Below are positions 14,437 to 60,237 of a DNA stretch of 64,000 nt, piece by piece (positions within the stretch are counted from its first letter, which is position 1; every line of letters starts with the position of its first letter). Below the pieces are notes generated by a model, which was not told where the DNA came from, searched no databases, and worked only from the letters and a program-made list of their open reading frames with translations. The position numbers and the translations under genes were made by a program. The stretch comes from Octopus vulgaris (lineage: Eukaryota): NCBI GenBank assembly GCA_951406725.2, contig OX597819.1:85002001-85066000 (forward strand). Reading direction: 5' to 3'.

Positions 14437-15369
14437 GGATCTTTTCCTTTTGAACGGCACATGTCAACATAATTTCTAGTTAACTAAACACTTTAAAACT
14501 TCGTATACTGGTAGAATGTGTCAAAATAAAACATTTTTTTCTCTTGGCTTTCTTGAGAAAATTGTAATTCGTTTGTTTAACGTAGTTTAATTTTTCGAAT
14601 TTTAACCAATGAATCGCCTCTAGTGAGCTCAAATCATTTGCTGCGTCTAAAACTGAGACAACATCCTGTCACTAACCCTAAACCTCACCCTTACCCTAAC
14701 CCTAAATTTTTTTTTCTTAATTGTTAAATTAATTTAATTGTTACGCGTGTAAGAAAAACGAAAGGCTAAAACGAAAGCAATGGAAAATAATTTAAACAAC
14801 AAACAAAATAATTCTATAATTTTATACATAATTCTATAATTTTATTAAAATACTGTTTGCGTGAGAACACATTAACTTTCTTGATTACTAAGGAAACAGC
14901 AACTGATGATATAAAACATCAGCTAGCGAAAACGAAATGGAGATTTAAAAAAAGATACTTGGTAGAAACATAAAATTACTTAGTAGAAAATTATAGAATT
15001 ATTTTGTTTCTTAATTGTTTAAATTATTTTCCATTGCTTTCGTTTTTATTTCTTAATTATTATCCTTAAATTAATTTAACAATTAAGGAAAAAGAAACGA
15101 AAGGCAAAAATTTAGGGTTAGAGTGAGGGTGAAGGTGAGGGTGTTGTCTCAGTTTTAGACGCAGCAAATGATTTTAGCTCAATTAGAAGCGATTCATTGG
15201 TTAAAATTCAAAAAATTAAACTACGTTAAACAAACGAATTACAATTTTCTCAAGAAAGCCAAGAGAAAAAAATATTTTATTTTGACACATTCTACCAGTA
15301 TACGAAGTTTTAAAGTGTTTAGTTAACTAGAAATTGTGTTGACATGTGCCTTTCAAAAGGAAAAGATCC
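14437..15369. mobile_element. Long-TIR MITE (GG termini, 8-bp TSD; Merlin- or hAT-like), nearly fully palindromic
   Basis: Starts ggatcttttccttttgaacggcac and ends gtgcctttcaaaaggaaaagatcc. Inverted arms are ~380 bp. Perfect TSD gaaaatga at 14429-14436 and 15370-15377. Internal taaccc/ttaggg-like repeats. Confidence 0.9.
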
Positions 15370-27731: not shown

Positions 27732-28563
27732 GGTGCCGGTGTAGCATGTGATCTACAACATCTTAAATATAGACTAGCTTCTGATCTACATTCAAAATTT
27801 TGTCATAAATTTGCAATTATAATTAGAGGAGTGAGTTAAACATTTAGAAAATAAAAGAAAAAGAAAAATTTTTATTGATTTTTATTTCATACTAGGGATC
27901 TTTTCGATTTGAACGGCAGTTTTTAACATAATTTCTAGGTAACTAAAAAATTTTAAACTTCGTATACTGGTAGAATGTGTTTATAAAACATCCTTTTCTC
28001 TTGGCTTTATTGAGAAAATTCCATAGTTTGTAAGATATTTGTTTTTTTTTTCTTCAATTTCTGCAATTTCAACCAATTACTGACGTCTATTGAGGTAAAA
28101 AACATTCTGTGCCGTATGAATATGTCCCTCGTTTAAGAAATAGATTGAGTTTATTTACATTTCTGAAAAAAAAAAAGATACCCTCCCCCCACCCCTAACC
28201 TTAAACAGATTGAAATGCAATAGATCGATACTAGGGTCATAATTATGGGTGACAATTTCATATGACACCGCTAGAAAAAACTGCCGTTCAAACCGAAAAG
28301 ATCCGAAAAATGTTTATTGATTTTTATTTCATACTAGAAACATGAATATTGTAACTTCCTCATCTCGAATAACCTGTGTATAAAATTCTTTTGCTCTCAT
28401 CACGACTTCTTTCAATAGGCTCAGGACTAAAAGTCGAGCAAATAGATGAATTTTAAATGTAGATCAAAAAGTCGGTGTAGATCACAAACTATACTATTTG
28501 AACTGATGTAGATCACAACCTAAACCAGAAATATGTATGTAGATCACATACTATACCGGCACC
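27732..28563. mobile_element. Outer MITE with GG-terminal TIRs and internal tgtagatcac repeats (Merlin-like)
   Basis: TIRs ggtgccggtgtagcatgtgatctaca / tgtagatcacatactataccggcacc, with 8-bp flanks gtttattt / gtttactt. Confidence 0.75.
27896..28304. mobile_element. Nested MITE related to the 14437-15369 element
   Basis: TIRs ggatcttttcgatttgaacggcag / ctgccgttcaaaccgaaaagatcc. Shares aaacttcgtatactggtagaatgtg with the 14437 element. Flanked by a 33-bp direct repeat. Confidence 0.85.
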
Positions 28564-32859: not shown

Positions 32860-32916
32860 TTCCACTGATGAGGCAAAGTATTTCTAAATGCAAAGTCAGA
32901 AATCCGGGATCTGGAG
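32860..32916 (+). ncRNA. Type I hammerhead ribozyme, near-canonical
   Basis: ttcca CTGATGA ggc-aaa-gtattt-ct-aaatgc-aaa-gtc a GAAA tc-cgg-ga TC tggag. Stems I, II and III all pair, with predicted cleavage after AUC (32911) and one extra A before GAAA. Lies in a ~230-bp segment bounded by (TA)-rich tracts. Confidence 0.75.
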
Positions 32917-35280: not shown

Positions 35281-35736
35281 TTTTAGAAATATTAAATTTC
35301 TAAATATCTCGGAGAGATATGAGCGGTGGTGAAGCGATAGAGTGGTCGTATACTGTCAACTTAACATGACAGTCCCGTAAAGGGAATCACACACCGCTAT
35401 TTAGCCCTAGGAAGCATCAACGCTTCCTGTCGACTTTGATACATTTCCTCCGAGATATTTATAAATATATATATATATATATTTGCGAAGGTTTGGCAAA
35501 CATCTGAACTAGCGGGCCTTACTACCCAAGACTGATGACGAGCAAGACACAAAAACATGCATGTCTCTAGGTGCAGGCCCTAGCTGGTGGAGGTGCTTGT
35601 CTCCCCTTCGCAAATATAAGGACACAGGAAATGTGTCAAAGCCGACAGGAAGCGTCGATGCTTCCTAGGGCTAAATAGCGGCGGTGTGATTCCCTTTACG
35701 GGACTGTCACGTTAAGTTGACAGTATACAACCACTC
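35281..35736. mobile_element. Inverted-repeat element with a central hammerhead relic, inserted in the Gypsy protease
   Basis: Arms 35340-35449 and 35626-35736 are inverted copies, with an inner IR atatttgcgaagg/ccttcgcaaatat. Direct repeat catatgtgata at 35270-35280 and 35736-35746. Confidence 0.8.
35526..35571 (+). ncRNA. Decayed type I hammerhead ribozyme
   Basis: ccaaga CTGATGA cgag-caaga-caca AAAA catgcatg TC tctagg. Stem I has 5/6 pairs, stem III is palindromic and the triplet is GUC. GAAA is mutated and stem II eroded. Confidence 0.55.
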
Positions 35737-43485: not shown

Positions 43486-43873
43486 TATTACATTATATAA
43501 AAGGGCTTAGTAAAATAAATTACTTTGCCACATACTGAACTCATTAGAAATAGTAGCTAAAAAAACTTTTTAAAAACTATTTCTAATACTTAAAGAAAAT
43601 CTCTCTCATATAGTGTTTGCTCAATTCAACTCACGAAAGTATGGGGGTAAAGACATTAAAAAATCAAATGCAATGGTTCTCAAATAACCTTTGCATTTGA
43701 TTTTTTAATGTCTTTACCCCCATACTTTCGTGAGTTGAATTGAGCAAACACTATATGAGAGAGATTTTCTTTAAGTATTAGAAATAGTTTTAAAAAAGTT
43801 TTTTTAGCTACTATTTCTAATGAGTTCAGTATGTGGCAAAGTAATTTATTTTACTAAGCCCTTTTATATAATG

Positions 43874-43878
<5 letters not shown>
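43486..43878. repeat. Near-perfect palindrome, 188-bp arms with a 17-nt spacer, embedded between (TA)n tracts
   Basis: 43486-43673 is the reverse complement of 43691-43878, with one mismatch seen. Confidence 0.95.
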
Positions 43879-58032: not shown

Positions 58033-58093
<61 letters not shown>

Positions 58094-58347
58094 GTAAATA
58101 TATAGAAGTAAATATATGGCACAACGAAGTACCGATATTTACTGGAAAATATGTATAATTTTCCCTCACGGGCTATTCTTTACTGGAAAGCAATACTCTC
58201 GTATTGCATTACTATATATATATATTTATATATATATATATATATATATTGATAAAACGGTAAGATAACAAAAGAAAGAAAGAGACCTCAATATTATGTA
58301 AATAGAGGAAATTTATCTATACAATATGTTACATTACTCGGTAGTCA

Positions 58348-58410
58348 AGATAAAACTCTGAGTTTCAGATGCCGAAGTGGAAATCCACAACACCATCTCT
58401 TCGGTTATCT
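58348..58410 (-). ncRNA. Type I hammerhead ribozyme variant in the PLE 3' region (pLTR)
   Basis: Minus strand: agataa CCGAAGA gatg..gtgg-attt-ccac..catc t GAAA ctc-a-gag TT ttatct. Perfect 6-bp stem I, extended stem II, near-palindromic stem III and a GUU triplet. Position U4 is C. Lies ~185 nt downstream of the endonuclease stop, on the same strand. Confidence 0.75.
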
Positions 58411-58594
58411 GGCTATTTGAAAACGTTGTGAAAAAATACCGTTAAAAATGAAGGGAAATTACTCTGTTATAACTCTGCTTTGCCTGCGTACTTATACATC
58501 GCTCGCATTTTTCGTCATAAAAATTATATAAAAATACATAAAAATATATAAAAATATATAAAATCTTCTTGGGACATAACACAGAAAGCATGTT

Positions 58595-59279
58595 CTATCC
58601 GTTTTCTTTAGGGGACCAAAAACGTAACAGAAATTTAGTCACATGTGGGCATGATCCGAAAAGCTCTGTCCTTGTATTTAGACATGTGGTAGGGTCTAAG
58701 CTGCTTTTCCAGATAAGCCATCTCTCCATGTCGCATAAACCGCACCTTCCGCTGCCGTTAGTGTAGGGCTTACATCTGGCCAAAATCTTCCATTGTATGT
58801 TATAATCGACACCTTTATCTCTTAAAGACCAAATATGATTGGATAATTGTGTCGCTTTTCTTTTGTTCCAGTGCCTAAAGCTCAAAGTGTGGTTATTGAA
58901 CCTGGCCTTGAAATTACCCTCTGTCAGGCCCACGTATTTCTTCGTCGAAACGGTGTCTTTAGTGGTTATAGAGTTTACGGTAGCTTCATATATGATGGTC
59001 TTGGACATGCAAGCTCCATTTAGCGGGCACAATTCTTTATTCCTGCATGAACAGCTGTTTTCTTCTTGTGTTTTTTGTATGTTATGATTGATTATGTTTT
59101 TAAAATTGGTAGTTGAACTAAAACTAATTTTTAAATTGTGTCTATTGAAGAGTTTCCTATAAGCATGGTTAACTGGAAAATGTCTATCTATCAGTGCTAG
59201 GAAATATTTACCTATATTGAAGGCCACCTCGGGTGAGTAAGGGGGCGTAAACCAGATGACCTTCCTATTTCTATTTCTA
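58595..59279 (-). CDS. PLE GIY-YIG endonuclease (C-terminal domain of the RT-EN ORF, 5'-truncated; frame intact in the left arm)
   Basis: RNRKVIWFTPPYS...CSCRNKELCPLNGAC..IIYEATV...KKYVGLTEGNFKARFNNH...LSNHIW...CGLCDMER. Shows GIY/YIG-like motifs, the catalytic-type R and E, and the Cys-rich linker typical of Penelope-like elements. Confidence 0.88.
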
Positions 59280-59945
59280 AAGGTCATCTGGTTTACGCCC
59301 TTACTCACCCGAGGTGGCCTTCAATATAGGTAAATATTTCCTAGCACTGATAGATAGACATTTTCCAGTTAACCATGCTTATAGGAAACTCTTCAATAGA
59401 CACAATTTAAAAATTAGTTTTAGTTCAACTACCAATTTTAAAAACATAATCAATCATAACATACAAAAAACACAAGAAGAAACAGCTGTTCATGCAGGAA
59501 TAAAGAATTGTGCCCGCTAAATGGAGCTTGCATGTCCAAGACCATCATATATGAAGCTACCGTAAACTCTATAACCATTAAAGACAACGTTTCGACGAAG
59601 AAATACGTGGGCCTGACAGAGGGTAATTTCAAGGCCAGGTTCAATAACCACACTTTGAGCTTTAGGCACTGGAACAAAAGAAAAGCGACACAATTATCCA
59701 ATCATATTTGGTCTTTAAGAGATAAAGGTGTCGATTATAACATACAATGGAAGATTTTGGCCAGATGTAAGCCCTACACTAACGGCAGCGGAAGGTGCGG
59801 TTTATGCGACATGGAGAGATGGCTTATCTGGAAAAGCAGCTTAGACCCTACCACATGTCTAAATACAAGGACAGAGCTTTTCGGATCATGCCCACATGTG
59901 ACTAAATTTCTGTTACGTTTTTGGTCCCCTAAAGAAAACGGATAG
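59280..59945 (+). pseudogene. Inverted second copy of the PLE GIY-YIG region with two frameshifts
   Basis: Same sequence as the left arm, with a 2-bp deletion at about 59300 and a 1-bp deletion at about 59480 that split it into ORFs 59314-59520 and 59508-59945. Confidence 0.88.
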
Positions 59946-60190
59946 AACATGCTTTCTGTGTTATGTCCCAAGAAGATTTTATATATTTTTATATATTTTT
60001 ATGTATTTTTATATAATTTTTATGACGAAAAATGCGAGCGATGTATAAGTACGCAGGCAAAGCAGAGTTATAACAGAGTAGTTTCCCTTCATTTTTAACG
60101 GTATTTTTTCATAACGTTTTCAAATAGCCAGATAACCGAAGAGATGGTGTTGTGGATTTCCACTTCGGCATCTGAAACTCAGAGTAACAT

Positions 60191-60237
<47 letters not shown>

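What the first reader, a model, noticed from the sequence alone, without database searches (positions are those of the whole stretch)
58318..60198. 1.9-kb fold-back Penelope GIY-YIG palindrome whose right-arm deletion starts at the ribozyme cleavage site
Seen: two ~0.93-kb arms point outward around a 16-nt spacer. The spacer continues the left arm's reading frame (RNRNRKVIWF), so the right arm looks copied back from the left. The left arm keeps the full hammerhead. The right arm lacks 24 bp starting within 1-2 nt of the predicted GUU cleavage site (cagag|taacatattg vs cagag-ttttatcttgactaccgagtaatg-taacatattg). Known: PLE insertions often include an inverted, 5'-truncated partial copy. Inference: hairpin-primed second-strand synthesis, with the deletion perhaps recording the cleaved RNA end or a template jump there. 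GT/GTAA microhomology is an alternative cause.
Basis: partly seen in the sequence, partly recalled or inferred. Interest (0 to 1): 0.75.

Follow-up and report, generated by a model that had tools for sequence, protein, structure and literature searches.

The report
Ordinary inverted Hydra-clade Penelope insertion
This 1.9-kb mirror-image repeat is a truncated copy of an abundant Penelope-like jumping gene in the inverted, one-tailed layout already described for this group, and the small deletion beside its predicted self-cutting RNA site is likely a copying slip rather than a record of RNA cutting.

Summary
The palindrome is in the sequence: arms 58318-59263 and 59280-60198, differing by 4 substitutions, 2 homopolymer indels and a 24-nt deletion. 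It is the 3' end of a high-copy Hydra-clade Penelope-like element (CxCX5C linker, CxxC/CxH motifs, (TA)n target). The two ends lie 36 and 103 nt past the predicted ribozyme cut, like 21 of 24 published Hydra consensus ends; 0 of 24 end at the cut. Inverted 5'-truncated copies, one-sided tails and self-priming are in print. The deletion starts 1-3 nt before the cut, but it has GT microhomology and removes sequence 3' of the cut. A fold-back arm copied from DNA cannot record RNA cleavage. A weak hint remains: 2 of 8 deletions in other copies break 2-3 nt from the cut (P 0.07-0.16). The centre junction was not seen in four runs. The scan found similar PLE fold-back stubs before on other DNA. Verdict: new family member, known architecture, low interest.

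The parts
58213..58250 (.). (TA)n target, left side of the insertion
   Evidence: sequence; Hydra PLEs insert in (TA)n
58251..58317 (-). 67-nt one-sided 'tail' of the element; long end 103 nt past the predicted cut
   Evidence: deep family cover in X1, X2, X18; X8 contig spans 58260-59275; other copies join (TA)n about 10 nt before 58260; distance
58318..59263 (-). left arm: 3' end of the Hydra-clade PLE; inferred first-strand cDNA
58342..58415 (-). predicted minimal type I hammerhead: core CCGAAGA at 58404, bulged stem II, palindromic stem III ACTC-A-GAGT, predicted cut after U17 (58354|58353); activity untested
   Evidence: motif scan, constrained fold and stem III self-duplex -9.2 kcal/mol, same stem III and cut letter as Penelope-3_HM
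58595..59275 (-). 5'-truncated ORF: end of RT thumb/linker, CxCX5C motif, GIY-YIG endonuclease, open to the stop codon
59264..59275 (-). 12 nt of spacer that continue the element 5' of the fold-back point
   Evidence: family contigs match to 59275 and then diverge in 4 of 4 runs (table 7)
59276..59279 (.). 4-nt filler, likely slippage on the TATTTC repeat or a minor family variant
   Evidence: sequence; one diverged X1 contig aligns to 59278 (record 8)
59280..60198 (+). right arm: inverted copy without tail, two frameshifts, 3 of the 4 substitutions private to it; short end 36 nt past the cut
60125..60185 (+). right-arm hammerhead remnant, lacking U17 and the 3' strand of stem I
60183..60186 (+). 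junction of the 24-nt deletion, GT microhomology at 60184-60185
60195..60229 (.). (TA)n target, right side; its first 4 nt could equally be element

Best explanation
This is a 5'-truncated, head-to-head inverted copy of a high-copy Hydra-clade Penelope-like retrotransposon in a (TA)n tract with a tail on the left end only, likely made by target-primed reverse transcription followed by fold-back copying, and its 24-nt deletion is likely a microhomology slip unrelated to RNA cleavage. Inferred steps: the GIY-YIG endonuclease nicks (TA)n; reverse transcription starts at the long site (58251) and stops about 1 kb in (59275); after 4 filler bases the cDNA end folds back and is extended on itself to give the right arm; the right end is closed at the family's short site (about 58318-58314); a slip at GT, during that copying or in later repair, removed 24 nt. 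Shown: the arms, their differences, element identity of the tail, the two family ends. Not shown: strand order, timing of the deletion, ribozyme activity.
For: Clade motifs in the protein and in its relatives. Tail is element sequence and both ends match ends of other copies next to (TA)n (58260 in X1; 58314-58333 rows in X2 and X18). Ends 36 and 103 nt past the cut match 10 of 24 Hydra consensus ends at 30-48 nt and 11 of 24 at 88-153 nt; 0 of 24 within 10 nt (from files S1/S2). Penelope-13_HM carries a 966-nt inverted 5'-truncated copy. One-sided tail and inverted copy are described as typical; two RT start sites bound the tail, and hammerhead mutants still insert in vitro. 5' ends 12 nt apart and a shared minority allele (5-12% of depth) fit one template. 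GT microhomology. Other copies carry scattered deletions in this region (table 5).
Against: No pairing longer than the arm itself explains fold-back priming at 59263/59280. 2-nt microhomology is weak: 18.5% of random 24-nt deletions in the arm have it. Over the whole arm the chance of a break within 2 nt of the cut is only 1%. 2 of 8 parsed deletions in other copies break 2-3 nt from the cut (P 0.07-0.16). The tail is 67 nt, longer than the 30-40 nt quoted for other PLEs. Neither the centre junction nor the 24-nt junction was listed in the 4 runs laid, so the locus has no independent confirmation.
Confidence: 0.78

Rival explanations
1. The right arm is a second, independent cDNA primed from the other target strand at the short start site; after about 11-15 nt the reverse transcriptase jumped onto the free 3' end of a ribozyme-cleaved RNA, using 2 nt of pairing, so the deletion records cleavage in vivo.
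For: PAc nicks and extends both strands, from two start sites. The break is 1 nt from the cut in one placement. Two other copies break 2-3 nt from the cut (X1: 58327-58351 lost; X2: 58284-58350 lost).
Against: Needs two cDNAs to stop within 12 nt of each other (1-2.5% by chance). U17 is lost. The other two breaks lie on the opposite side of the cut, at an A4 run. The motif has U4C, reported to lower activity in vitro, and minimal PLE hammerheads cleave poorly. In the anole no RNA-seq reads ended at the cut. No end cluster at the cut among the 20 loose-end rows shown of 436.
Confidence: 0.1
2. The stem I / stem III hairpin region is a structure-driven deletion hot spot in single-stranded cDNA or RNA, independent of cleavage chemistry.
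For: 8 of 11 listed joints fall in 58255-58430; hairpins are predicted there for RNA and for single-stranded DNA.
Against: That region also has about 2-3 times the depth of the ORF region, so more joints are expected; breakpoints scatter from 58341 to 58423.
Confidence: 0.07
3. The palindrome is an assembly or chimeric-read artefact, or a mis-join of two separate copies.
For: Centre joint not listed in X1, X2, X8, X18; both small indels are homopolymer deletions in one arm, a pattern typical of long-read error (own knowledge).
Against: Arms differ by 4 substitutions and 24 nt and run into different flanks, which a mirrored read would not give; both ends match family ends; the layout is typical of the clade. 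X1 and X2 were read only to about 80% and 76% and need not be this individual.
Confidence: 0.05

Closest known systems
Hydra-clade Penelope-like elements (Craig et al. 2021, PMC8557442), e.g. Penelope-13_HM, Penelope-3_HM, Hydra-1_Obim
   Same: C-terminal GIY-YIG, CxCX5C linker, CxxC and CxH around conserved E and N, (TA)n target, minimal hammerhead with palindromic stem III and U at the cut, element ends about 35-48 or 90-150 nt past the cut, roughly 1-kb inverted 5'-truncated copy (Penelope-13_HM).
   Different: A different family from Hydra-1_Obim (its hammerhead differs; three short motifs of this element were absent from the supplement). Core has C4 where all 26 Hydra rows of file S2 have U4.
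Adineta vaga Penelope insertions with inverted pLTR, tail and junction palindromes (Arkhipova et al. 2013, PMC3846280)
   Same: Head-to-head inverted copy, optional tail on one end, microhomology deletions, self-priming proposed.
   Different: Different PLE clade; tail 31 nt there and 67 nt here; target-site duplication cannot be read here because the target is (TA)n.
PAc (Poseidon, Anolis carolinensis) in vitro system (Frangieh et al. 2024, PMC11167929)
   Same: AT-rich target; two RT start sites downstream of the hammerhead define the tail.
   Different: Different clade; that work did not reconstitute second-strand synthesis or inverted products.

Membership tests
Hydra-clade PLE | C-terminal GIY-YIG endonuclease after an RT domain | tested here: met
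   EN in the window; RT lies upstream in 5 of 5 longer relatives at 40-47% identity. The copy itself is truncated and lacks the RT core.
Hydra-clade PLE | CxCX5C linker motif | tested here: met
   CSCRNKELC at residues 71-79; definition
Hydra-clade PLE | CxxC and CxH flanking conserved E and N; canonical CCHH motif absent | tested here: met
   CGLC..E..LN..CPH; no cysteines between the two halves of the GIY-YIG motif, read by eye from the alignment
Hydra-clade PLE | RWK and DKT motifs in the N-terminal region | tested here: inconclusive
   Region missing from this copy; RWK in P0002 and P0004, DKT in P0002, P0004, P0005
Hydra-clade PLE | Insertion into (TA)n | tested here: met
   both flanks; other copies too (table 7)
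Hydra-clade PLE | Hammerhead motif near the 3' end | tested here: met
   motif with clade-typical stem III, with a U4C change
Hydra-clade PLE | Placement in the clade on an RT tree | not tested
   no RT core in the window and no full-length copy fetched
EN+ PLE inverted insertion unit | Inverted 5'-truncated copy, tail at one end only | tested here: met
   described
Active hammerhead ribozyme | Self-cleavage after position 17 | not testable with these tools
   needs an in vitro assay; core deviates (U4C, bulged U before GAAA)

The most novel reading that the evidence does not exclude
The right arm is an independent cDNA whose 24-nt deletion marks a reverse-transcriptase jump onto the ribozyme-cleaved RNA end, and such breaks recur in this family (two further copies break 2-3 nt from the cut). 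Thousands of copies would then be a genomic record that PLE hammerheads cleave in vivo during transposition, which is an open question.
Probability: 0.1. Interest if true: 0.55.

Novelty: new member of a known kind. Interest (0 to 1): 0.17.

Why it matters
As it stands it adds one young, abundant Hydra-clade family (held by runs under 9 organism labels at 82-94% of sampled words) and a clean example of the known inverted, one-tailed insertion. The role of PLE hammerheads is described as unclear, so a proven pile-up of breakpoints at the cut would matter; this family has enough copies to test that with one genome assembly.

Tried and rejected
No own genome is held, so copies could not be compared directly. 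Rfam: no hammerhead match. No second copy of the element in the window by blastn or tblastn. Metagenome scan with the protein: 220 pattern hits, 0 confirmed. An 18-nt pattern gave 12 metagenome and 1 viral loci, all chance matches of 18-27 nt. No RNA holder on record; X18 is RNA only by guess, so nothing is said on expression. Centre joint and 24-nt junction not listed: deletions of this size were subject to the 3% filter I set, 416 loose-end rows were hidden, and a hole proves nothing. Loose end at 58358 (3 contigs, X1) looked like an end at the cut but reads as a related copy with a different downstream sequence. Earlier findings by sequence and by place: none. Literature search for Penelope-like + hammerhead + breakpoint + template switch: 0 papers; this found no report of breakpoints at the PLE ribozyme cut, but most subscription papers are not in the library. 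Host species was not determined; PMC13282606 passages did not bear on the locus.

Full report
Observation. The palindrome is present as described. The arms are 58318-59263 (946 nt) and 59280-60198 (919 nt), with 16 nt between them. They differ by 4 substitutions (58962/59578, 58953/59587, 58459/60081, 58428/60112), a 2-nt and a 1-nt homopolymer deletion and a 24-nt deletion, all three gaps in the right arm. The left arm holds an open frame to a stop at 58595; the right arm's frame is broken twice. No other copy lies in the window, and no genome is held.

What it is. The protein gives a weak Pfam GIY-YIG hit (E 0.011) and 5 longer RT-EN relatives among 351 candidates at 40-47% identity. It has CSCRNKELC, CGLC and CPH, which match the CxCX5C, CxxC and CxH motifs that define Hydra-clade PLEs; the relatives show the RWK and DKT motifs. 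Both flanks are (TA)n, the clade's usual target. The family is abundant: 20 of 24 listed runs, from 11 studies and 9 organism labels, hold 82-94% of the sampled words, and 7,264 and 10,828 contigs of X1 and X2 were laid on the left arm. Depth there is no copy number.

Corrected anatomy. Laying four runs on 58255-59280 shows that 58255-58317 is element, not flank: cover is deep and one X8 contig spans 58260-59275. Other copies join (TA)n about 10 nt before 58260 (5 contigs, X1) and near 58314-58318 (rows of 22 and 33 contigs in X2; 5, 2 and 2 in X18). So the left arm ends at the family's long end with a 67-nt tail and the right arm at the short end. These lie 103 and 36 nt past the predicted cut. 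From files S1 and S2 of PMC8557442 I computed the same distance for 24 of 26 Hydra rows (dropped: the minus-strand row of Penelope-13_HM and Penelope-18, whose motif is at the 5' end): 10 at 30-48 nt, 2 at 63-70, 11 at 88-153, 1 at 355, none within 10 nt (about 1 nt uncertain). At the centre, all four runs show the family continuing differently after 59275, so 12 spacer bases are element and 4 are filler or a minor variant.

The ribozyme. The motif has core CCGAAGA (58404), a bulged stem II, stem III ACTC-A-GAGT and U17 at 58354. Stem III and the cut letter equal those of Penelope-3_HM; U at the cut occurs in 10 of 26 Hydra rows; all 26 have U4, whereas this element has C4, and 58403 is not among the 40 variable sites shown of 47. 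U4C is reported to lower activity in vitro while still supporting a viroid (PMC3088659, one passage). Minimal PLE hammerheads work as dimers and poorly (PMC4209133, passages). Rfam gave no hammerhead match. Activity is untested.

How the palindrome likely formed. The arms' 5' ends are 12 nt apart; two independent truncations of a 1-2.4 kb stretch would do this 1-2.5% of the time. Both arms carry G at 58763, which makes up 8%, 12% and 5% of depth in X1, X2 and X18. This fits fold-back copying of the left cDNA, though a shared allele also fits two RNAs from one source locus. Inverted 5'-truncated copies and one-sided tails are described as typical of PLEs (PMC8557442, passages, section 11 and supplement parts 2 and 52), Penelope-13_HM has a 966-nt inverted copy, and self-priming was proposed from such junction palindromes (PMC3846280, passages). 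In vitro, the anole element starts reverse transcription at two sites that bound the tail, inserts without an active hammerhead, and no RNA-seq reads ended at the cut (PMC11167929, parts 1-2 of 4).

The deletion. Its three placements start 1-3 nt before the cut and share GT. The 9 nt kept beyond it are element (chance about 0.001 per 100 nt). Against the cleavage reading: a fold-back arm is copied from DNA, so a cut in RNA cannot mark one arm only; the lost bases are 3' of the cut and would be copied first; none of the 20 loose-end rows shown of 436 marks an end at the cut; chance is 14-22% for deletions in the last 60-100 nt. For it: chance is 1% over the whole arm; 2-nt microhomology occurs in 18.5% of random placements, so it is weak evidence; and after placing the filler letters, 2 of 8 deletion events in other copies break 2 and 3 nt 3' of the cut (X1, X2), where 0.45-0.72 are expected (P 0.07-0.16). 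Those two breaks sit at an A4 run, and deletions of about 24 nt were hidden by my 3% filter, so the decisive size class was not counted. I put the cleavage reading at 10%.

Is the locus real? The centre joint was not listed in the four runs, of which X1 and X2 were read to about 80% and 76%. This neither confirms nor refutes. The differing arms, distinct flanks and family-typical ends argue against a mirrored read; the two homopolymer indels may be sequencing errors. The left arm's rare G at 58428 is seen at low depth in X1 and X2 (166 and 102).

Verdict. A new family member of the Hydra clade in a known insertion layout. The scan noted similar PLE fold-back stubs on other genomes; those notes were not checked and carry no weight here. 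Interest 0.17.

Noticed in passing
window 43486-43878: Second near-perfect palindrome (393 nt, 97.7%) whose right end runs into (TA)n; no long ORF and no similarity to the PLE found.
   Followed up: partly
window 14437-15369: 933-nt element with long terminal inverted repeats and telomere-like TAACCC/GGGTTA repeats inside, MITE-like; related piece at 27896-28020.
   Followed up: no
window 35340-35736: 110-nt inverted repeats around a 175-nt middle that begins with a (TA)n run.
   Followed up: no
window 32865-32915: Another hammerhead-core-like match (CTGATGA...GAAA...TC) just right of a TA-rich tract; no similarity elsewhere in the window; may be chance or an old PLE stub.
   Followed up: partly
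window 58091-58212: 122-nt unique piece between two (TA)n runs directly left of the insertion, with an internal short duplication; no other copy in the window.
   Followed up: partly
window 58255-58430: An opposite-strand joint 58307/58413 appears in both X1 and X2, a shared tiny inverted copy elsewhere; sites 58414 and 58417 vary together in three runs, marking a subfamily with a different tail.
   Followed up: no
The element is near-identical in runs under 9 organism labels; close relatives, diet or environmental samples, or horizontal transfer were not told apart.
   Followed up: no
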